From Acidobacteriota bacterium (GTDB lineage Bacteria; Acidobacteriota; UBA890; WLXD01): a stretch of DNA of 64,000 nt. Both the position numbers and the translations under genes were made by a program. Location of the stretch: positions 2,724 through 66,723 of the forward strand of contig JAJCXT010000108.1 in the NCBI GenBank assembly GCA_029263295.1, in the 5' to 3' direction. Below the pieces are notes generated by a model. The model saw only the letters and a list, made by a program, of their open reading frames with translations. It was not told the origin of the DNA and did no database searches. Positions 6,444 through 14,755 of this stretch are shown piece by piece (position 1 is the first letter of the stretch; the number at the start of each line of letters is the position of its first letter).

Positions 6444-7310
6444 GTGAAGAGCTGGTTGCGCGAGCCGCTGGTTCATTTTCTCGTGCTGGGCGCGCTGCTG
6501 TTCATCCTCAACGGCATGTTCGGAAGCTCGGCGCCGGCCGATCCGACCATCAGGGTCTCGGAACCGGCGATCGCCCGACTGGCACAGCTGTTCAGCGCAC
6601 AGTGGCAACGGCCGCCGACACGCGCGGAACTCGATGGGCTAGTCGAACAACAGATCCGCGAAGAGGTTCTGTATCGCGAAGCGGTAGCTCTGGGGCTGGA
6701 CCAGAACGACACGATCGTGCGGCGAAGATTGGTCCAGAAGCTCGAGTTCCTGTCACAGGACCTGGTCGACGAGAATCCGTCGGAGGCCGATCTGCGCGGC
6801 TTCTTCCAGGAGAACGCGGAGCGTTTTGAAGAGCCGGCCGTGCTCACGTTCACCCACGTCTACCTGAACCCGGACCGCCGCGGAGACTCGCTGCGTGGGG
6901 ATGCCGAACTGCTATTGGACGACCTTCGAGCTGACTCAGCCGGCGACGCAGCTGACCTCGGCGACACGTTTCTGTTGCCGCTGACCTTCGCGCAGCGCTC
7001 CCAACGTGAAGTCGCCGGCCTGTTCGGGGCGGACTTTGCCGCCGACCTGGCTACTCTGGAAGTCGGCTCGTGGCAGGGCCCAGTGGCGTCGGGATACGGC
7101 CTCCACCTCGTGCTGGTGCAGGAGCGCATCAACGCCCGTGTGCCGGAGTTCGGCGCCGTCCGCGACAAGGTCCGTCTCGAGTACCTGAGCGTGCAGCGGC
7201 GCGATGCCGACGAGACGATGTATCAGCGGCTCCGCGAGCGCTACCGCATCGATGTCATGTGGCCCGCCGAGATCGAAGCTGCGGGCGAGGCGGCAGGGAG
7301 GTCCGACTGA
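6444..7310 (+). CDS. PpiC/rotamase-type peptidyl-prolyl isomerase family protein
   Basis: WLREPLVHFLVLGALLF, QWQRPPTRAEL, REEVLYREAVALGLDQNDTIVRRRL, WQGPVASGYGLHLV. Confidence 0.8.
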   Translation: MKSWLREPLVHFLVLGALLFILNGMFGSSAPADPTIRVSEPAIARLAQLFSAQWQRPPTRAELDGLVEQQIREEVLYREAVALGLDQNDTIVRRRLVQKLEFLSQDLVDENPSEADLRGFFQENAERFEEPAVLTFTHVYLNPDRRGDSLRGDAELLLDDLRADSAGDAADLGDTFLLPLTFAQRSQREVAGLFGADFAADLATLEVGSWQGPVASGYGLHLVLVQERINARVPEFGAVRDKVRLEYLSVQRRDADETMYQRLRERYRIDVMWPAEIEAAGEAAGRSD

Positions 7311-8341
7311 TGGCCGGCCAGGTGGCGGCCCGACACCGCGCGAGGGCGCGCACCCTCAGCATCGTTATCGCGCTCGGCGCTCTCCTCGCCCCGGTCGTCG
7401 CCACCGCTCACGAGCTCGACCCAGGATTCCTGGAGCTGCGCGAGACGACGCCCGGCGAGTACTCGGTGCTATGGAAGGTCCCGTTGAAAGCCGGCCGTCG
7501 GATGTCTCTCGACCCGGTCTTCCCGACCGAGTGCAGCGCGACCACACCGGTCTCGTCGCGACCTTCAGGGCGCGGAGTTATGGAGCGCTGGCGCCTCGAG
7601 TGCCCTTCCGGCCTGGCCGGCGCCTCCATCACCATCGGCGGCCTGGAACGCACCTACACCGACGTGATGATCCGGATCGAACTCACGGAGGCCGAACCGC
7701 TCACCTACCTCGTAGGGTCAACCAACCCGACTGTCGTGGTAGGCGCCGAGGGACAGGCTAGCCAGGGCGCACTCGGATACCTCTGGCTTGGCTTCGAACA
7801 CATCCTGCTAGGCATCGACCACTTGCTCTTCGTGCTCGGTCTGCTGCTCATCGTGCAGAACCCCTGGACGCTGCTGAACACCGTCACCGCGTTCACGGTG
7901 GCGCACAGCATCACGCTGGCCATCGCGACTCTCGGGTGGGCCTCCGCTCCGGCGGCGCCCCTCAACGCCGCCATCGCTCTGAGCATTCTGTTCCTCGGGC
8001 CAGAGATAGTGCGCGTGTGGCGGGGCGAGACCAGTTTCACGATTCGGCACCCATGGGTCGTTGCGTTCGCGTTCGGGCTGCTGCACGGGTTCGGTTTTGC
8101 CAGCGGACTTTCCACCGTCGGTTTGCCGCAGGCCGAGATCCCGCTGGCGCTGCTGCTGTTCAACCTCGGCGTCGAGGCCGGCCAGCTCTTCTTCGTGCTG
8201 CTGATCCTGGCGCTCGAACGTGCGTTCCGGGTGCTCGAGATCCACTGGCCACGATGGGCGGAGATGTTCCCGGGCTACGCCGTCGGCTCGCTGGGCGCGT
8301 TCTGGTTCATCCAGCGCACCTGGATGCTCCTGGGAGGTTGA
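7310..8341 (+). CDS. HupE/UreJ-like membrane protein with soluble N-terminal domain
   Basis: TGATG coupling; mature N-terminus AHELDP; LGFEHILLGIDHLLFV, TAFTVAHSITL, FGLLHGFGFA. Confidence 0.85.
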   Translation: MAGQVAARHRARARTLSIVIALGALLAPVVATAHELDPGFLELRETTPGEYSVLWKVPLKAGRRMSLDPVFPTECSATTPVSSRPSGRGVMERWRLECPSGLAGASITIGGLERTYTDVMIRIELTEAEPLTYLVGSTNPTVVVGAEGQASQGALGYLWLGFEHILLGIDHLLFVLGLLLIVQNPWTLLNTVTAFTVAHSITLAIATLGWASAPAAPLNAAIALSILFLGPEIVRVWRGETSFTIRHPWVVAFAFGLLHGFGFASGLSTVGLPQAEIPLALLLFNLGVEAGQLFFVLLILALERAFRVLEIHWPRWAEMFPGYAVGSLGAFWFIQRTWMLLGG

Positions 8342-8343
8342 CT

Positions 8344-8991
8344 GTGTTGTTCCGGCGCCTTCCGATACTCGGGTTCCCACCGCGCGCATGGACGACACCT
8401 GGGCGTGCGTTCCTGCTCGCCGGCTCGGGCATCGTAGTGCTCGCGTGGCCTCTGCTCGCCTGGGCGCACGAGGAAACCGGGCAGGCGGCCGGATTCCTGG
8501 CCGGGATGCTGCACCCCGTATCGGGGCTCGACCACGTGCTCGCGATGGTCGCCGTCGGTTTCTGGGGCGCCCAGCTGGGTGCGCCCGCACTGTGGATGCT
8601 TCCCGTCGCCTTTCCCATGGTGATGGCTGTCGGGGGCATGCTCGGGCTGATGGGGATACTGCTGCCCGGTGTGGAACTCGGGATTGCCGTATCGGCTGTG
8701 GCGCTCGGAGCGATGGTGCTGGGCGAGGTCAAGGCTCCGCTCGGTGCCGCCGCCGCTCTAGTCGGTTTCTTCGCGATTTTCCACGGCCACGCGCATGGAA
8801 CCGAGTTGCCGGACGGAACTAGCGGGCTCTACTACTCCATCGGGTTCGTCACCGCGACAGGGCTGCTGCACGCTGCCGGCATCGGTTTTGGCATGATCCA
8901 CAGCCGGCCTCGCGGCCCCGCGATCCTGCGCGCGGCGGGTGGCCTGGTGCTTCTCGGCGGCCTCTACTTCTTGTGGCGGGTGATGGCGTGA
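8344..8991 (+). CDS. HupE/UreJ family protein
   Basis: AHEETG, GMLHPVSGLDHVLAMVAVG, FAIFHGHAHGTELP, ATGLLHAAG; start 8338 or 8344. Confidence 0.88.
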   Translation: MLFRRLPILGFPPRAWTTPGRAFLLAGSGIVVLAWPLLAWAHEETGQAAGFLAGMLHPVSGLDHVLAMVAVGFWGAQLGAPALWMLPVAFPMVMAVGGMLGLMGILLPGVELGIAVSAVALGAMVLGEVKAPLGAAAALVGFFAIFHGHAHGTELPDGTSGLYYSIGFVTATGLLHAAGIGFGMIHSRPRGPAILRAAGGLVLLGGLYFLWRVMA

Positions 8992-9641
8992 GGGCCGCGC
9001 TCCGCTTGCCCGTAGGCATCACCCGGGCGCGCGGCGAGGTCGCCACCAGCCGCCTAGCGCCGGCTGCATTCCTGACGGCCCTGCTCGTACCCGGCCGTGC
9101 CGATGCCCACCTGGTCAACACCGGCTTCGGTCCCTTCTACGACGGCATCTCGCACCTGTTCGTGACCGCCCCCGACCTTCTGGTGGTCGCCGCGCTGGCG
9201 CTCTTGGCCGGTCTCCGCGGCCACGCGACCGCGCGCGGCACGCTGCTCGCGGTGATCATCGCCTGGGGGCTCGGTGGCTTCGCCGGTCTACTGACGGCGC
9301 CCGCAGTTGTCTGGACCGCGATCACAACCGGCAGCTTCCTCCTGCTCGGCGCACTGCTGGCGGCTGATCGCGAACTGCCCGTCGGGGTGGTCATCGGGCT
9401 CGGTGCCCTCGTCGGGCTGATCCACGGCTTCCTCAACGGCGCCGAGTCCGCAGCCGCGGGTATTGGCTTCGTGGGCCTGGTCGGCAGCCTCGCGGCGGTC
9501 GCGGTTCTGGCGACCCTGATTAGCGCGGCCGCTGTTTCGCTCGCCGAGGGCTCGACCCGCGTCGCCGTGCGGGTGGCCGGGTCGTGGATCGCGGCAATCG
9601 GCATTCTGATGCTGGGCTGGCTGTTCCGGCCCGGCGCGTAA
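8988..9641 (+). CDS. HupE/UreJ family protein, divergent type
   Basis: GTGA overlap; AHLVNTGFGPFYDGISHLF, GLIHGFLNG, RVAVRVAGSWIAAIG. Confidence 0.75.
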   Translation: MRAALRLPVGITRARGEVATSRLAPAAFLTALLVPGRADAHLVNTGFGPFYDGISHLFVTAPDLLVVAALALLAGLRGHATARGTLLAVIIAWGLGGFAGLLTAPAVVWTAITTGSFLLLGALLAADRELPVGVVIGLGALVGLIHGFLNGAESAAAGIGFVGLVGSLAAVAVLATLISAAAVSLAEGSTRVAVRVAGSWIAAIGILMLGWLFRPGA

Positions 9642-9677: not shown

Positions 9678-10145
9678 CTACATCTTCCAGCGTTCCGGGA
9701 AATCTTCGAGGCCTTCAACCTCGTCGGCCGGGCGCTGGCCGTGCAGACGCCGGCCCTGCCAGAGCATGGTGAGCAGCGCGACCCAGAACATCGCGCCGCC
9801 CAGCGCGACGGCCGTCGGCGGGAGCAAACTGCCGACCCGCATCCGTTCCCAGAGAACCTCGAAGGAACCCGCCACGGTCGGATGCATCTCCAGCTTCAGC
9901 AACCACGCCCCGGTGAGGGTCGCGTAGATGAAGATGTAGTTGCGGCGCAACCGGAACCCGATGGTCGGCAGCATCTTCGACTTGTACCTGGGCTGATTGA
10001 GGTCCTGGCATATCTGCTAGCGCCAGATTGTCGATCGGTGCGTCTCGCCGCGATAGAAATGCACCATCACGCTGAGATATTCAGGGCGCGATAGCGGCGC
10101 TTCTTCGAGTGCGGCCGCGGCGGCAGTTTCGTCGGCATCATTCAT
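9678..10145 (-). pseudogene. DUF2270 family membrane protein, apparent internal deletion plus in-frame TAG
   Basis: N-terminal MVHFYRGETHRSTIWR, TAG at 10017-10019, then same frame QDLNQPRYK...RLRRNYIFIY...AWLLKL (C-terminal motifs); central part absent. Confidence 0.7.
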
Positions 10146-10193
10146 CGACGGAGGGTCTAGGCGGTGTGCGTGATCTTCACCGTCGTCATCGCG

Positions 10194-10236
10194 AAAAGCC
10201 GGCCCCAGGTCGGATCGCGACCCGGGCCGGCTCTTC
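10194..10236 (-). terminator. Intrinsic terminator after the spondin gene
   Basis: Minus strand: GCCGGCCCGGGTCG/CGACCTGGGGCCGGC stem followed by TTTT. Confidence 0.6.
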
Positions 10237-10289
10237 TACGAAACCGGTCGGGAGCTACTCCCGAGCCGGGCGCCTCGGGGAGCGGCGAC

Positions 10290-10937
10290 TTACTTGGCGG
10301 GGATAATCTCGACGCGCATCACGGGGTTGCGCCAGTCGTACGTCATCTTGGGAAGGTCACCATCGCCGCGGATGCCCGCGTGAATGTGAACGAAGCCCTC
10401 GCGATCGCTCCGCGCACGTGCGCCACCACTTCCGCACGGCGGACCGGGGATCTTGGCGCAGCTTTCGTTGTTGGCTTCGCTGCCCGCGTCGTAGGCAGGA
10501 ATCGTGAAGTGGCGGCGTCCGGCGAGGGTCGACAGGTCGTAGCTGTCGAGGCCCGCGAACGCATCGTTGGTCGTCACCAACATGGAGGCCAGACTCAGAA
10601 AGTCGCCGTCCGCGATCGTGATCTCGACGCTCTGCGTGGCTCCCGGAAGCAGCGGGCCAGCCGCCATTACCCACTCTGTGACCTCGGCGCCGGCATCGTC
10701 GAGCGCCGCCGTCAATCCGGACGCGTCGGCGTCCTCCGCCAGCGCTGCGAGCCCGGCGCTGGCCTTCTTGCCAACCTTGAACATGCGGACTCTGTTCGAG
10801 TGGGTCGCGATGACCGCCGGACTCATGATCTGACCGCGGGTCAGGTTGGTGATGCGAATCTCGTAGGTCTGGGCGCTGGCGTTGCCAGCGACGATCATCG
10901 CCGCGGCGATCGCCATGAAACTGAGTAGCTTGCGCAT
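10290..10937 (-). CDS. Secreted spondin_N domain protein
   Basis: Signal peptide; YEIRITNLTRGQIMSP, LAEDAD, ASMLVTTNDAFAGLD, YDAGSEANNE. Confidence 0.82.
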   Translation of the reverse strand: MRKLLSFMAIAAAMIVAGNASAQTYEIRITNLTRGQIMSPAVIATHSNRVRMFKVGKKASAGLAALAEDADASGLTAALDDAGAEVTEWVMAAGPLLPGATQSVEITIADGDFLSLASMLVTTNDAFAGLDSYDLSTLAGRRHFTIPAYDAGSEANNESCAKIPGPPCGSGGARARSDREGFVHIHAGIRGDGDLPKMTYDWRNPVMRVEIIPAK

Positions 10938-11007
10938 TCTGGTGCACTCCTTGAGGCGTCAGTCCACGGGGAATCCGTCAACTAACCACGACTATGGGGT
11001 GACCGAC

Positions 11008-11045
11008 TCACGCGGCGCTCACGCGTTCATCACGAAAGCATCACG
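11008..11045 (-). promoter_or_regulatory. Four direct repeats at 11-bp period, candidate OmpR-family binding array
   Basis: TCACG (plus strand) at 11008, 11019, 11030 and 11041, upstream of the spondin gene. Confidence 0.7.
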
Positions 11046-11068
11046 GCTGGCACCAGGTGTGCTCGCGC

Positions 11069-12520
11069 TTACGCCAGCGGCAGCTGAATCCTGAACGTGG
11101 TGCCCTGACCGGGCGCGCTGGAGAAGTCGATCCGGCCACGATGGAGTTCGATCGCACGCTTGGCAATAGCCAGCCCCAGACCGCCACCACCCTGGCCGGT
11201 GTCGCTGGTACCGCGATAGAAGCGTTCGAACACGTGGGCCTGGTGCTCGGGCGGAATACCGTCGCCGGTATCCCTCACCGAGAGTTCAACGCCGCCGGGC
11301 TCGCGGCCCGCGGCGATGTCCACACTGCCGCCGTCGGGCGTGTGATGCAGCGCGTTGTCCAGCAGATTGGACAACGACCGCTCGATGAGGCGCGGATCGC
11401 CGACGATCTCACAGTCGGCGATCGCGAGGTCGGTGCCGAGATCCACGCCCCGGCGCTCGGCGACCACGCGATAGCGCCGAGCAACATCACGGACGAGTTC
11501 CTCGAGACCGAACGTCTCCGTCATGGCGGGCACCTCGAGCGCATCGAGACGGGCGAGTTCGAACAGTTCGTCGATCAAGCGGCTGAGCCGCTCGCCGTGA
11601 CGAATTGCGACTCCCAGATGCTCGTCCCTCTCGACGTCGGTCAGGCGGTTCCCCTGCAGACGAACTGTCTCGATGTAGCCGGTCAGATGCGCCAGCGGCG
11701 TACGCAGGTCGTGCGAGACATTGGCGACGAGCTCGCGGCGCGACCGGTCGGCGCGACTCAACGCTTCCACCTGCGAACGAATGCGCTCGGCCATGCCGCG
11801 GAACGATGCCTGCAGGCTGGCAACCTCGTCCCCACTGGCTGGCCGCTGCTCTGTTGGCGTGCCCGCCAACGCGGCGGTGAAGTCGCGCACCTCCTGTTCA
11901 AGACCGACTAACGGTCGCGTCAGTCGGTGCACGAGCGTCGTACCCACGACGAGCGTGATCGCTACGATGGCAAGCCCGATCCAGGCGGCAAGGCGCAGCA
12001 TGTAGTTGCGGCCCAGCATGGCGGCCACGCCGTCATAGGCTTCGCCCGCCAGTACGATGTAGACGTACCCGAACTGCACACCGTCGCTGGCAAGGGCTGC
12101 CGCCGAGAACACCTTGCGCCCCTGCGAACGCGGATCGTCGCCCAAGACCGGTCCATCGCCCTCGCCCTCGAGCAGGCGCTGCACGGGCGCCAACGACACG
12201 CGGCGTCGCTCCACGTGCCCCTCGGGTGCGGAGAACGCCAGGATCTCGCCGGTCGCGTCCAAGAGGTAGACCTCGATGGCCGGATTCACATGCATCAGTT
12301 CGGTGAACAGCGTGGCGAGCGACTCCTGATTCACCTCCTCGCCATCGACCAGCGCGTACGTATCGGCGATGTGGGTCGCCAGCTCCGCATTCAGCCGCTG
12401 CTGCACTTCCTGCTCGTACATGCGGCTCGTCCGCACGGTGAGCGCCAGAAACCCCGCGCCGGCAATGACGAGGAGTGCCGCCAGGCCGGCCGTGAGTTTG
12501 GCCAGGAGTGATCTACCCAT
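11069..12520 (-). CDS. Sensor histidine kinase (HAMP-HisKA-HATPase)
   Basis: Two TM segments; VSHDLRTPL H-box; NLLDNALHH, DTGDGI, GLGLAIAK. Confidence 0.93.
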   Translation of the reverse strand: MGRSLLAKLTAGLAALLVIAGAGFLALTVRTSRMYEQEVQQRLNAELATHIADTYALVDGEEVNQESLATLFTELMHVNPAIEVYLLDATGEILAFSAPEGHVERRRVSLAPVQRLLEGEGDGPVLGDDPRSQGRKVFSAAALASDGVQFGYVYIVLAGEAYDGVAAMLGRNYMLRLAAWIGLAIVAITLVVGTTLVHRLTRPLVGLEQEVRDFTAALAGTPTEQRPASGDEVASLQASFRGMAERIRSQVEALSRADRSRRELVANVSHDLRTPLAHLTGYIETVRLQGNRLTDVERDEHLGVAIRHGERLSRLIDELFELARLDALEVPAMTETFGLEELVRDVARRYRVVAERRGVDLGTDLAIADCEIVGDPRLIERSLSNLLDNALHHTPDGGSVDIAAGREPGGVELSVRDTGDGIPPEHQAHVFERFYRGTSDTGQGGGGLGLAIAKRAIELHRGRIDFSSAPGQGTTFRIQLPLA

Positions 12521-12521
12521 G

Positions 12522-13250
12522 TCAGGCCTCCGCCCGCGGATCGTGGAAGCGGTAGCCGACACCCCAGACTGTGTGCACGTAGCGGGGCGCACCCGGATCC
12601 GGCTCGATCTTGGCCCGGAGCCGGTTTACGTGCGCATTCACAGTGTGCTCCTGGGCGCCATAGGAGCCGCCCCACACGAGGTCCAGCAACTGGGTGCGCG
12701 TGTAGACGCGTCCCGGGTTGGACGCGAGTTGCAGCAGCAGATCAAACTCAGTGGCCGTCAGCTCCGCGCGTTGCCCGTCCACGGTCACGCCGCGACTCGT
12801 TGGATCAACGACGAGACCACCGACTACCAGTCGCTTGTCCGGGTCGGCCTGAATGCTGCGCGCGAGTTCCACCCGCCGCAGGATCGCCTTCACCCGCGCG
12901 GTGAGCTCGCGGATGGCGAACGGTTTCACGAGATAGTCATCGGCGCCGAGTTCGAGCCCGACGACCCGATCCGTCTCGTCTGCGCGCGCCGTCAGGATCA
13001 GGATCGGCGTGTAGTCCTGCCGCTGGCGTAGTTCGCGACACAGGTCCAGCCCGTCGCCATCCGGCAGCGTCAGATCCAGGATCACCAGCACCCGCTCTCG
13101 CGCCCGCAGCGCGCGGCGCGCCGATCCGAGATCAGGCGCAACGTCCACTTCGAAGCCCAGTGGCGTCAGGTTCAACTGGAGCAGGCGGCCCAAGTCCGGT
13201 TCGTCTTCGACGACCAGGACCGAGGGGTGACTCTGTGTGGCAGTAGGCAT
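12522..13250 (-). CDS. OmpR-family response regulator
   Basis: VLVVEDEP, DLTLPDGDG, GADDYLVKPF, TVWGVGYRF. Confidence 0.94.
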   Translation of the reverse strand: MPTATQSHPSVLVVEDEPDLGRLLQLNLTPLGFEVDVAPDLGSARRALRARERVLVILDLTLPDGDGLDLCRELRQRQDYTPILILTARADETDRVVGLELGADDYLVKPFAIRELTARVKAILRRVELARSIQADPDKRLVVGGLVVDPTSRGVTVDGQRAELTATEFDLLLQLASNPGRVYTRTQLLDLVWGGSYGAQEHTVNAHVNRLRAKIEPDPGAPRYVHTVWGVGYRFHDPRAEA

Positions 13251-13262
13251 CGCGACAGCGTA

Positions 13263-13289
13263 TGACGTGCTTATCACGAAAGGTTCACA
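13263..13289 (-). promoter_or_regulatory. 11-bp-period repeat upstream of the response regulator, candidate autoregulatory box
   Basis: TGACG 13263, TCACG 13274, TCACA 13285; ATCACGAAAG at 13273-13282 is identical to 11029-11038. Confidence 0.65.
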
Positions 13290-13408
13290 TTCCGGCGGTT
13301 TCCGCGCACGAGCATTGGCGCCTTCATCCTGCCCGCGGAGCAGGGCAGACCTTCCGCCACTCAACCTTGCGTGGTATCCCTAGGGTCCCCCTGCTGCCGG
13401 GAGACTGT

Positions 13409-14755
13409 ATGCGCGAAACCTGGGCCAGCCGCTTCGGGTTCATCATGGCCACCGCCGGATTCGCCGTGGGGCTCGGCAATATCTGGCGCTTCCCGTACAT
13501 CACGGGAATGAACGGCGGCGGAGCGTTCCTGCTGCTGTACCTGGTGATCGTCTTGTTCATCGGTGTGCCGCTGATGACCGCCGAGATCAGCCTGGGGCGG
13601 CGCACGCAGCTGACGCCGATCGCCGGCATGTGGAAGCTCACCGGCAGGCGCTGGCATCCGTGGAACCTGTTGTCGTGGCTGGGCGTTGCCGCTGCCGTGA
13701 TCATCAATGCGTACTACATCATGCTGGTGGCGTGGATCGTCGGCTACTTCTTCATGATTGCCAGCGGCCGCTTCGCCGGTGCCAGTCAGGAGGAAGTGGC
13801 CACGACCTACGCGGTGTTCACGACGAGTCTGGGGCCGATGTTCCTGTACTCGTTCCTGCTGATCGCCTTGATGGCAACGCTCGCCGCACGCGGGCTGCGC
13901 GATGGCCTCGAACGCATGGCGCGGGTGGCGATGCCGCTCCTGTTCGTACTGATGGTCGCCCTGGCGGGGTGGTCGATGACCTTCCCCGGAGCACGCGAAG
14001 GACTGGCGTGGTTCCTCACGCCGAATTTCAGAGCCATCACTCCCGCCACGGTTCTCGCCGCGCTTGGCCAGGCTTTCTACTCGATCGGCATCGGCATGGC
14101 CGCGGCCTTCGCGCTCGGGAGCTTTCTGGATCGCGACTCGTCCGACGTGCCCGGCAACGCGGCCATAGTGGTCGCCTGCGACACCGCCGTGGCCGTACTG
14201 GCGGGGCTGGTGATGTTCCCCGCGCTCTTTGCCTTCGGGCTCGAGCCCGACGCCGGCCCGAGTCTGCTGTTTCTCACCATGACCAACCTGTTCGCGCAGA
14301 TGCCGGGAGGAGCCCTCTTCGGCGGCGTGTTCTTCCTGCTACTGATCCTGGCCGGGATGACGTCGCTGGCGGCCATGTACGAAGTCTTGACGGCCACGCT
14401 CATCGACGCCACCGGGATGCCTCGTCGCGTCGCAATCGCCGTGGTGGCCGTGGGGTGGGCGGTGCTCGTCACGCCAGTGCTGCTGGCGCAGGGACCCTGG
14501 GCGGGGACCTGGGCCTTCGGCATGGGTCTGTTCGCTCTCATGGACCACGCTTCAGGACAGATCATCCTGCCAGCGGCCGGACTCATGGTGGCACTCTTCA
14601 CTGCGTACGGCTGGGGCTACTCCGCTTTCCGCGACGAAACGAACCGCGGCGCCAGCAGGTTCCAGGTCAACGCCGCGTGGCGGCCGCTGGTCGTGATCCT
14701 GATACCACTCGCCGTAGCCGTCGTGGCGTTGGTGGGTTGGGGCCTGATCGGCTAG
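13409..14755 (+). CDS. Sodium-dependent transporter (NSS/SNF family)
   Basis: WASRFGFIMATAGFAVGLGNIWRFPY, ALGQAFYS; many TM helices. Confidence 0.92.
   Translation: MRETWASRFGFIMATAGFAVGLGNIWRFPYITGMNGGGAFLLLYLVIVLFIGVPLMTAEISLGRRTQLTPIAGMWKLTGRRWHPWNLLSWLGVAAAVIINAYYIMLVAWIVGYFFMIASGRFAGASQEEVATTYAVFTTSLGPMFLYSFLLIALMATLAARGLRDGLERMARVAMPLLFVLMVALAGWSMTFPGAREGLAWFLTPNFRAITPATVLAALGQAFYSIGIGMAAAFALGSFLDRDSSDVPGNAAIVVACDTAVAVLAGLVMFPALFAFGLEPDAGPSLLFLTMTNLFAQMPGGALFGGVFFLLLILAGMTSLAAMYEVLTATLIDATGMPRRVAIAVVAVGWAVLVTPVLLAQGPWAGTWAFGMGLFALMDHASGQIILPAAGLMVALFTAYGWGYSAFRDETNRGASRFQVNAAWRPLVVILIPLAVAVVALVGWGLIG

What the first reader, a model, noticed from the sequence alone, without database searches (positions are those of the whole stretch)
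10290..13289. Self-contained OmpR-type circuit with an 11-bp-period TCACG array controlling a spondin-domain gene
TCACG occurs at exactly 11008, 11019, 11030 and 11041 upstream of the spondin gene. The same period appears upstream of the regulator (13263, 13274, 13285), in the same orientation and with an identical ATCACGAAAG. OmpR/PhoB-family proteins are known to bind direct repeats of about 11-bp period. Inference: the regulator controls itself and the secreted spondin protein, a domain better known from animal extracellular matrix proteins. The signal is unknown.
Basis: partly seen in the sequence, partly recalled or inferred. Interest (0 to 1): 0.72.

Follow-up and report, generated by a model that had tools for sequence, protein, structure and literature searches.

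The report
Response-regulator boxes controlling bacterial spondin gene
A sensor-regulator pair in an uncultured Acidobacterium very probably switches on itself and the neighbouring exported, calcium-site-bearing "spondin" protein through conserved 11-bp-spaced CGTGA repeats; the mechanism is textbook, but this three-gene module, found in many bacterial phyla, did not turn up in the literature I searched.

Summary
Four TCACG pentamers, exactly 11 bp apart (11008-11045), lie between the kinase stop and the spondin gene. A two-copy box (13274-13289) precedes the regulator. All three genes are on the minus strand, so the motif in gene orientation is YGTGA.

The regulator-kinase-spondin order recurs across Acidobacteriota and at least five other phyla. 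At both promoters the GTGA cores and a -10-like hexamer exactly 11 nt downstream are the only invariant columns. The box sits next to the kinase-regulator pair (20/25 versus 4/41 loci). It is almost confined to these two promoters genome-wide. Where the regulator's recognition helix differs (Chloroflexota), the box changes to GTAA.

No -35 element is present, so this most likely works as pho-box/CiaR-type activation with positive autoregulation. The regulator mRNA is probably leaderless.

The target protein is a genuine F-spondin-domain fold that keeps both calcium-site motifs. The signal and the protein's role are unknown.

This is a new member of a known kind of system, with MtrAB-LpqB and CpxRA-CpxP as the closest analogues. 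Binding itself is untested.

The parts
12522..13250 (-). Response regulator, 242 aa, OmpR/PhoB family (receiver plus winged-helix Trans_reg_C). Phospho-acceptor D59, T87 and K109 are present. Recognition helix EHTVNAHVNRLR.
   Evidence: Pfam Response_reg 93 bits and Trans_reg_C 95 bits. No NCBIfam equivalog cut-off is reached; best hits are MtrA 208/300 and PhoB 205/296. Residues located.
11069..12520 (-). Sensor histidine kinase, 483 aa. TM1 about 9-29, periplasmic domain of about 145 aa with no Pfam match, TM2 about 175-197, then HAMP, HisKA (H270 in SHDLRTPL) and HATPase_c. Its ATG lies 1 nt after the regulator's stop, so the two form one operon.
11008..11045 (-). Four direct repeats of CGTGA (TCACG on the + strand) at exact 11-bp period. 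They start 23 nt after the kinase stop and are the proposed binding site for two regulator dimers at the spondin promoter.
   Evidence: The GT(G)A of each repeat is invariant in a 9-genome alignment.
10991..10996 (-). Putative -10 hexamer CATAGT of the spondin promoter, exactly 11 nt downstream of the proximal CGTGA. No -35-like hexamer is present.
   Evidence: Its A2 and T6 are invariant across 9 relatives at fixed spacing. The consensus scan finds no sigma-70 promoter in 10000-13500.
10290..10937 (-). Exported spondin (FS) domain protein, 215 aa. Sec signal peptide ending ASAQ; SD AAGGAG at 10947-10952. It keeps both FS hallmark motifs (TNDAF and YDAGSE) and adds a bacterial C-terminal Cys-loop/HIH segment.
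   Evidence: Pfam Spond_N 34.7 bits. NF038123 158 bits against cut-off 40. PDB profile hit to mindin 3d34, E 2.4e-11. AF2 pLDDT 76 and Foldseek 3d34 E 9e-12, TM 0.68. Invariant D125, D150, E154.
10194..10231 (-). GC-rich hairpin followed by UUUU after the spondin stop: a probable intrinsic terminator.
   Evidence: Fold -67.7 kcal/mol, z = -4.7 for 10170-10295. The pattern scan missed it because the tract has only 4 U.
13274..13289 (-). Regulator-promoter box TGTGAacctttCGTGA: two repeats at 11-bp period.
   Evidence: GTGA, TT and GT.A are invariant in a 16-locus, multi-phylum alignment.
13263..13267 (-). Weak third in-register copy CGTCA (TGACG on the + strand), conserved only within the genus.
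13257..13262 (-). Putative -10 hexamer TACGCT, 11 nt after the proximal CGTGA and 6 nt before the ATG (13250). This predicts a leaderless regulator mRNA; no SD is present.
   Evidence: TA is invariant at this position in 16 loci. The same 6-nt distance to ATG is seen in both same-genus relatives.

Best explanation
The locus is a three-gene module on the minus strand: an OmpR/PhoB-family response regulator, its membrane histidine kinase, and an exported spondin-domain protein.

Proposed mechanism:
1. The kinase senses an unknown extracytoplasmic signal through its 145-aa periplasmic domain and phosphorylates the regulator at D59.
2. The phosphorylated regulator binds head-to-tail to YGTGAW half-sites spaced 11 bp apart. 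One dimer binds at its own promoter (2 repeats). Two dimers bind at the spondin promoter (4 repeats).
3. In both promoters the proximal half-site ends 11 nt upstream of the -10 hexamer (10 nt if the half-site is read as a hexamer), and there is no -35 element. The bound regulator therefore stands where sigma region 4 would need a -35 and recruits RNA polymerase. This is class-II activation, as at pho boxes and CiaR boxes.
4. The outcome is positive autoregulation plus induction of the spondin protein. The circuit is almost closed on itself.

Shown here: the repeats, their conservation, spacing, orientation, genome-wide specificity and covariation with the regulator.
Inferred: binding, activation rather than repression, the leaderless regulator mRNA, and the role of the protein.
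For: (1) The repeats are real and non-random.
(2) Synteny: regulator-kinase-spondin is kept in 9 of 10 acidobacterial relatives. About 40 of 80 spondin loci from many phyla also carry the pair. The regulator and kinase are the only recurrent neighbours of spondin.
(3) Phyletic coupling in 40 relatives: 10 have both, 1 has the kinase only, 2 have spondin only, 27 have neither (Fisher p = 8e-7).
(4) Footprint: at both promoters the invariant columns are exactly the GTGA cores plus A/T of a -10 hexamer at fixed 11-nt spacing, while spacers drift.
(5) The box tracks the kinase-regulator pair: 20 of 25 collinear loci against 4 of 41 loci without an adjacent pair (p = 9e-9).
(6) Orientation follows the gene when the arrangement is divergent (L066) or permuted (L104).
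(7) Covariation: regulators with helix EHTVN[SA]H[IV]NRLR go with GTGA boxes in all phyla. Chloroflexota regulators with TSTVTVHIRRLR go with GTAA boxes.
(8) Specificity: YGTGANNNWWTYGTGA hits 13 places in 8 module-bearing genomes, 11 of them at module promoters. Three of 4 module-less genomes have 0 hits. The reversed control gives 1 hit.
(9) PWM scan of this genome: the two module sites score 29.2 and 27.6 bits, one other site 25.5, and the next 17.7.
(10) No sigma-70-like -35/-10 pair exists in the region.
(11) In Glaciecola sp. MH2013 the orthologous regulator-kinase pair is unlinked, yet the spondin gene keeps TGTGAttgtttCGTGA + 11 nt + TAGTAT.
Against: The -10 hexamers are weak (CATAGT, TACGCT) and were assigned by conservation only.

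At the regulator promoter the box lies 13-40 nt from the ATG. If the true start site were further upstream, the box would act as a repressor site.

One relative with the same recognition helix (G029, L020) shows no clear GTGA box. Five of 25 collinear loci lack the strict pattern.

The PWM training set included the window's own two boxes.
Confidence: 0.8

Rival explanations
1. The regulator binds the boxes but represses, at least at its own promoter, by occluding the core promoter (negative autoregulation). Spondin would then be transcribed mainly by read-through from the operon.
For: The regulator box is only 13-40 nt upstream of the ATG. No terminator is seen between the kinase and spondin.
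Against: The fixed 11-nt distance to a conserved TAnnnT is kept across phyla even where the box lies 50-110 nt from the start codon. No -35 element is present. The same geometry at the spondin promoter, with its own SD and terminator, points to an activator-dependent promoter.
Confidence: 0.1
2. The repeats are bound by some other DNA-binding protein, or are a structural or repeat element unrelated to the adjacent regulator.
For: Binding is untested.
Against: The box co-occurs with the kinase-regulator pair. It covaries with the regulator's recognition helix. It follows gene orientation. It is essentially absent elsewhere in the genomes.
Confidence: 0.05
3. The periodic TCACG array is a chance feature of GC-rich intergenic DNA.
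For: Pentamers are short and the genome is 65% GC.
Against: 0 of 100 shuffles reach the observed count. The only in-register triple in 3.36 Mb is here. The columns are invariant across genomes with 42-86% protein identity.
Confidence: 0.01

Closest known systems
MtrA-MtrB-LpqB of Actinomycetota
   Same: Same three-gene order: OmpR-family regulator, kinase, exported protein. The best NCBIfam hit of the regulator is MtrA. The mycobacterial MtrA site is a direct repeat of GTCACAgcg, whose complement TGTGAC matches YGTGA(C). MtrA binds its own operon promoter at -34, consistent with autoactivation (PMC13189361).
   Different: Scores are far below the equivalog cut-offs (MtrA 208/300, MtrB 175/450). 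The third gene is a Spond_N protein with a Sec signal peptide, not the LpqB lipoprotein. The third gene here has its own four-repeat promoter. The host is Acidobacteriota and the module is scattered over many phyla.
PhoB / pho box, and CiaR boxes (TTTAAG-N5-TTTAAG about 10 bp upstream of -10)
   Same: Direct repeats at 11-bp period replace the -35 element at a fixed short distance from -10. Strong promoters carry two tandem boxes (four repeats). The regulator operon is autoactivated.
   Different: The half-site sequence differs (YGTGAW against CTGTCAT or TTTAAG). PhoB equivalog models are not reached (205/296). There are no phosphate-related genes in the regulon.
WalR/VicR (TGTWAH-N5-TGTWAH)
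   Same: Hexamer half-sites with a 5-bp spacer. The consensus differs from YGTGAW at a single position (PMC4168254). The kinase's best NCBIfam hit is WalK, over the catalytic half only. The Chloroflexota versions of the module use TGTAAt/CGTAAg, which fits WalR-type sites.
   Different: YycF model 196/340 and WalK 202/725. The kinase has no PAS domains. The regulon is one or two promoters rather than cell-wall hydrolases.
CpxR-CpxA with CpxP; ZraSR with ZraP
   Same: This is the functional analogue: an envelope kinase-regulator pair whose adjacent, most tightly controlled target is a small periplasmic protein, with regulator boxes at both promoters. In those systems the protein feeds back on the kinase (my own knowledge).
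   Different: The protein folds are unrelated (C2-like beta-sandwich here). ZraR is sigma-54-dependent. The CpxR site is GTAAA-N5-GTAAA. Feedback by the spondin protein is untested.
F-spondin / mindin FS domain of animals (PDB 3q13, 3d34)
   Same: Same fold (Foldseek E 9e-12, TM 0.68). Both hallmark motifs that build the Ca2+ site (PSPDW and DAGTD; PMC3117680) are kept as TNDAF and DAGSE, with D125, D150 and E154 invariant.
   Different: It is a stand-alone 190-aa mature protein without reelin-N or TSR domains. It has an extra conserved C-terminal segment (NNExC..IPGPPCGSGG...HIH) that is modelled poorly (pLDDT below 50 for residues 155-179). It lacks the disulfides and glycosylation of F-spondin.

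Membership tests
OmpR/PhoB-family two-component response regulator | N-terminal receiver domain with acidic pocket, phospho-acceptor Asp, and conserved Thr and Lys | tested here: met
   Response_reg 93.2 bits. E15-D16, D59, T87 and K109 located.
OmpR/PhoB-family two-component response regulator | C-terminal winged-helix Trans_reg_C DNA-binding domain | tested here: met
   PF00486 94.7 bits, full length 1-77/77.
OmpR/PhoB-family two-component response regulator | Binds tandem direct repeats at about 10-11-bp period | not testable with these tools
   Sequence evidence only: conserved 11-bp-period YGTGA repeats that covary with the recognition helix.
MtrAB-LpqB | Regulator reaches the MtrA equivalog model NF040689 | tested here: not met
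   208.2 bits against cut-off 300.
MtrAB-LpqB | Kinase reaches the MtrB equivalog model NF040691 | tested here: not met
   175.2 bits against cut-off 450.
MtrAB-LpqB | Third gene encodes the LpqB lipoprotein | tested here: not met
   The third gene is Spond_N/NF038123 with a non-lipoprotein signal peptide.
PhoBR phosphate regulon | PhoB/PhoR equivalog models reached | tested here: not met
   PhoB TIGR02154 205.5/296.2; PhoR TIGR02966 192.7/334.2.
Heavy-metal kinase-regulator pairs (CusRS/CzcRS/CopRS) | TIGR01387 (regulator) and TIGR01386 (kinase) subfamily cut-offs reached | tested here: not met
   168.9/279.2 and 185.5/292.55, although the kinase aligns end to end.
WalRK | YycF and WalK equivalog models reached | tested here: not met
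   196.3/340 and 202.2/725, with only the C-terminal half of the kinase aligned.
Spondin_N / FS domain (PF06468; NF038123) | Profile match above the curated cut-off | tested here: met
   PF06468 34.7 bits against 24. NF038123 158.1 bits against 40.
Spondin_N / FS domain (PF06468; NF038123) | FS-domain fold (8-stranded C2-like beta-sandwich) | tested here: met
   AF2 model pLDDT 76.4. Foldseek top hits 3d34 and 3q13, E 9e-12 and 2e-9, TM 0.64-0.68; the next hit has E 0.04.
Spondin_N / FS domain (PF06468; NF038123) | Ca2+-site motifs PSPDW and DAGTD | tested here: met
   TNDAF (D125) and YDAGSE (D150, E154) are invariant in 10 orthologues and align to the mindin motifs. The site definition comes from PMC3117680. 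Metal binding itself is not tested.
Activator-dependent (class II, pho-box-like) promoter | Regulator box abutting or replacing -35 at fixed distance from -10, with no -35 consensus | tested here: met
   11-nt spacing to the conserved -10 at both promoters in up to 16 loci. No sigma-70 -35/-10 match.
Activator-dependent (class II, pho-box-like) promoter | Transcription depends on the phosphorylated regulator | not testable with these tools

The most novel reading that the evidence does not exclude
Regulator-kinase-spondin may be a widespread, undescribed three-component envelope-sensing system, seen here in at least 6 phyla. In this reading the exported FS-domain protein is not just the output. 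It would be a Ca2+ (divalent-cation) or anionic-lipid-binding co-sensor that feeds back on the kinase's periplasmic domain, as LpqB does on MtrB or CpxP on CpxA. The breadth of the bacterial family (more than 570 loci) would also make bacteria the likely source of the animal FS domain.
Probability: 0.25. Interest if true: 0.65.

Novelty: new member of a known kind. Interest (0 to 1): 0.45.

Why it matters
It gives a sequence-defined operator (YGTGAW-N5-YGTGAW, 10-11 nt from -10) and a minimal regulon for a two-component system that did not turn up in my literature searches and is spread over Acidobacteriota, Proteobacteria, Nitrospirota, Planctomycetota, Desulfobacterota and others.

It ties the bacterial relatives of the animal F-spondin/mindin domain, for which four full-text literature searches found no report, to a signal-transduction context.

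The circuit is nearly closed: two promoters and three genes. That makes it a compact, testable sensor-output pair. A cultured carrier, Glaciecola sp. MH2013, offers a way to find the signal and the function of bacterial spondin proteins.

The regulatory logic itself is textbook, so the advance is one of annotation and regulon definition, not of mechanism.

Tried and rejected
(1) A wider regulon in this genome. The only other strong box is at C104:5883, upstream of an Alginate_exp-like outer-membrane barrel. It is not conserved in 11 orthologous loci, so it is at most a lineage-specific target.

(2) Functional hints from neighbours. Three HupE/UreJ paralogs and an SNF symporter flank the module. 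Neither is conserved next to spondin in 80 loci.

(3) Assignment to a named system. MtrAB, PhoBR, WalRK, CreBC, BaeSR, CpxAR and CusRS all fall below their NCBIfam cut-offs.

(4) Literature on bacterial spondin proteins or on a kinase-regulator-spondin link. Nothing relevant was found.

(6) Consensus promoter and terminator scan. It found nothing. The terminator was found by folding instead.

It is not conserved outside the genus.
Full report
**Anatomy**

The finding lies in a 65%-GC Acidobacteriota MAG. The assembly is 78% complete; record titles of the nearest relatives name the phylum. All three genes are on the minus strand.
- Response regulator, 13250->12522, 242 aa: Response_reg plus Trans_reg_C.
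- Histidine kinase, 12520->11069, 483 aa: two TM segments flanking an unassigned periplasmic domain of about 145 aa, then HAMP, HisKA and HATPase_c. Its ATG lies 1 nt after the regulator's stop.
- A 131-nt intergenic region.
- Spondin-domain protein, 10937->10290, 215 aa, with a Sec signal peptide and an AAGGAG SD.
- A strong hairpin plus UUUU at 10231->10194 follows the stop (z = -4.7).

A sodium:neurotransmitter-family symporter diverges from 13409. Three HupE/UreJ paralogs converge from 7070-9641.

**Check of the observation**

TCACG starts at exactly 11008, 11019, 11030 and 11041.
- The N6-spaced pair gives 3 overlapping matches in the window, all here, against 0.22 expected. None of 100 shuffles reaches 3.
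- In the whole 3.36-Mb assembly an in-register triple of [CTG]GTGA occurs only here.
- ATCACGAAAG occurs at 11029 and 13273 only.
- Upstream of the regulator the three in-register pentamers read TCACA (13285), TCACG (13274) and TGACG (13263). Only one is exact.

Because the genes are on the minus strand, the motif in gene orientation is YGTGA.

**Comparative evidence**

*Synteny and co-occurrence.* The spondin protein has orthologues in 12 of 40 relatives. In 9 of 10 fetched loci the regulator-kinase-spondin order is kept, with protein identities from 86% down to 41%.

Of these, 573 encode a relative. They come from Acidobacteriota, Chloroflexota, Planctomycetota, Proteobacteria, Desulfobacterota, Nitrospirota, Myxococcota and others.

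Of the best 80 loci, about 40 have an orthologous regulator and kinase next to spondin. These are the only recurrent neighbours. Among 40 relatives, kinase and spondin co-occur: 10 both, 1 kinase only, 2 spondin only, 27 neither (p = 8e-7).

*Spondin promoter.* All eight aligned acidobacterial relatives have four in-register NGT(G/T)A units. In the alignment the only invariant columns are the GT(G)A of each unit plus the A and T of a CAnnnT hexamer. That hexamer begins exactly 11 nt after the proximal unit.

The same design holds in distant loci:
- a proteobacterial MAG: tttCGTGAcactttTGTGA + 11 nt + TATAAA
- a Nitrospirota MAG: ...TGTGA + 11 nt + TATCGT
- Glaciecola sp. MH2013: TGTGAttgtttCGTGA + 11 nt + TAGTAT

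*Regulator promoter.* Sixteen loci from three phyla share YGTGAnnnTT(T/C)YGTGA + 11 nt + TAnnnT. GTGA, TT, GT.A and TA are the invariant columns.

In the window and its two congeners the -10 hexamer (TACGCT, 13262->13257) ends 6 nt before the ATG and there is no SD. This predicts a leaderless mRNA.

*Link to the regulator.* Four observations tie the box to this regulator.
1. NGTGA-N6-NGTGA within 300 bp upstream of spondin is found in 20 of 25 collinear loci with the kinase-regulator pair. It is found in 4 of 41 loci without an adjacent pair (p = 9e-9). At least two of those four (Glaciecola, Exilibacterium) carry an unlinked orthologous regulator-kinase pair with the same recognition helix.
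2. Box orientation follows the gene in a divergent locus (L066) and a permuted one (L104).
3. Regulators with helix EHTVN[SA]H[IV]NRLR go with GTGA boxes in every phylum. The Chloroflexota modules have a WalR-like helix (TSTVTVHIRRLREKIE) and use TGTAA/CGTAA boxes instead.
4. The 16-nt pattern YGTGANNNWWTYGTGA hits 13 places in 8 module-bearing genomes, 11 of them at module promoters. Three of 4 module-less genomes have none. The reversed control pattern hits once.

A PWM built from 41 boxes scores the two window sites at 29.2 and 27.6 bits, one further site at 25.5, and the next at 17.7. The window's own sites were in the training set.

**Mechanism**

The consensus scan finds no sigma-70-type -35/-10 pair anywhere in 10000-13500. 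The boxes abut the -10 at a fixed distance. The most likely mechanism is therefore class-II activation.

The phosphorylated regulator would bind as head-to-tail dimers, one at its own promoter and two at the spondin promoter. It would substitute for the -35 contact, as PhoB does at pho boxes and CiaR at TTTAAG-N5-TTTAAG boxes about 10 bp from -10 (my own knowledge).

This gives positive autoregulation plus induction of the spondin protein. Spondin may also receive read-through from the operon, because no terminator separates it from the kinase.

What is shown: the sequence features and their evolutionary behaviour. What is inferred: binding, the sign of regulation and the transcription starts.

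**The target protein**

It matches Pfam Spond_N (34.7 bits) and NCBIfam NF038123 (158 bits). A profile of 10 orthologues hits mindin 3d34 (E 2.4e-11) and F-spondin 3q13. An AF2 model (pLDDT 76) hits the same two structures and essentially nothing else (E 9e-12 and 2e-9, TM 0.64-0.68).

The F-spondin Ca2+ site is built from D325 of PSPDW and D354/D358 of DAGTD (PMC3117680). The bacterial proteins keep TNDAF and YDAGSE, with D125, D150 and E154 invariant. A divalent-cation site is therefore probably retained.

A bacterial-specific segment follows (NNExC..IPGPPCGSGG...HIH.GI.G.GDL) with two invariant Cys. It is poorly modelled.

The function is unknown. I rate an induced periplasmic cation- or envelope-binding protein as the default reading. 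A feedback co-sensor is the more novel alternative.

**Comparison with known systems**

No NCBIfam equivalog cut-off is reached.

| Model | Regulator (bits/cut-off) | Kinase (bits/cut-off) |
|---|---|---|
| MtrA / MtrB | 208/300 | 175/450 |
| PhoB | 205/296 | not compared |
| OmpR | 201/331 | not compared |
| YycF / WalK | 196/340 | 202/725 |
| CreB | 189/273 | not compared |
| Heavy-metal subfamily | 169/279 | 186/293 |

The nearest analogue in layout and half-site is MtrA-MtrB-LpqB. It is also a regulator, a kinase and an exported modulator. The mycobacterial MtrA repeat GTCACAgcg is the complement of TGTGAC. MtrA binds at -34 of its own operon (PMC13189361). Membership nevertheless fails on all three genes.

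Functionally the circuit resembles CpxRA-CpxP.

Four full-text literature searches found nothing on bacterial spondin proteins or on their link to a two-component system.

**Limits**

- One relative (G029) with the same recognition helix lacks clear GTGA boxes. It has an 11-bp tandem GGATCGAATCG instead.
- Five of 25 collinear loci fail the strict pattern.
- The third strong site in this genome (C104:5883, 112 nt upstream of an Alginate_exp-like barrel) is not conserved in orthologues. It lacks the 11-nt/-10 geometry.

**Verdict**

The mechanism is ordinary for the OmpR/PhoB family. The module and its operator did not turn up in the literature I searched, so this is a new member of a known kind.

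Noticed in passing
window 7070-9641 (+): Three consecutive, partly overlapping ORFs all match HupE/UreJ (Ni/Co permease family): 7070-8341 (HupE_UreJ_2), 7936-8991 and 8973-9641. They converge on the spondin gene. This neighbourhood is not conserved in other spondin loci.
   Followed up: partly
G000 contig C104:5883-5898 (outside the window): A third strong box, CGTGAcggtttCGTGA (PWM 25.5 bits), lies 112 nt upstream of a 443-aa secreted Alginate_exp-like outer-membrane barrel. It is absent from the orthologous promoters of 11 relatives, so it is a possible lineage-specific extra target.
   Followed up: yes
L107-L111, about 100-180 nt upstream of the Alginate_exp-like gene: A different conserved element, tttTTAGCCnnnnCTAAAt (an imperfect palindrome), precedes this barrel gene in several relatives. 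It is probably the operator of another regulator.
   Followed up: no
L025 (G008:C15:1989500-1996500): In this relative all three module genes show a frame break (regulator near residue 141, kinase near 192-201, spondin at 70/71), yet four perfect CGTGA repeats remain. This is either decay of the whole module or indel errors in a long-read assembly.
   Followed up: no
L042 and L105 (Chloroflexota MAGs): The regulator-kinase-spondin module here uses a WalR-like recognition helix (TSTVTVHIRRLREKIE). Its boxes are TGTAAtcctttCGTAAgg instead of GTGA. This is a natural specificity swap within the same module.
   Followed up: partly
L020 (G029:C40), kinase-spondin intergenic region: This locus has a perfect 11-bp tandem, GGATCGAATCG x2.3, instead of GTGA repeats, although the regulator has the same recognition helix. 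Unexplained.
   Followed up: no
window 13248-13262: The regulator's predicted -10 ends 6 nt before its ATG and no SD is present. The same layout holds in both congeners, which suggests a leaderless mRNA in this acidobacterial genus.
   Followed up: partly
L089/L121 (Glaciecola sp. MH2013) and L077/L122 (Exilibacterium tricleocarpae): These cultured Gammaproteobacteria carry the spondin gene with the box. The orthologous regulator-kinase pair sits on another contig (47% and 45% regulator identity, same recognition helix). They are usable experimental hosts.
   Followed up: yes
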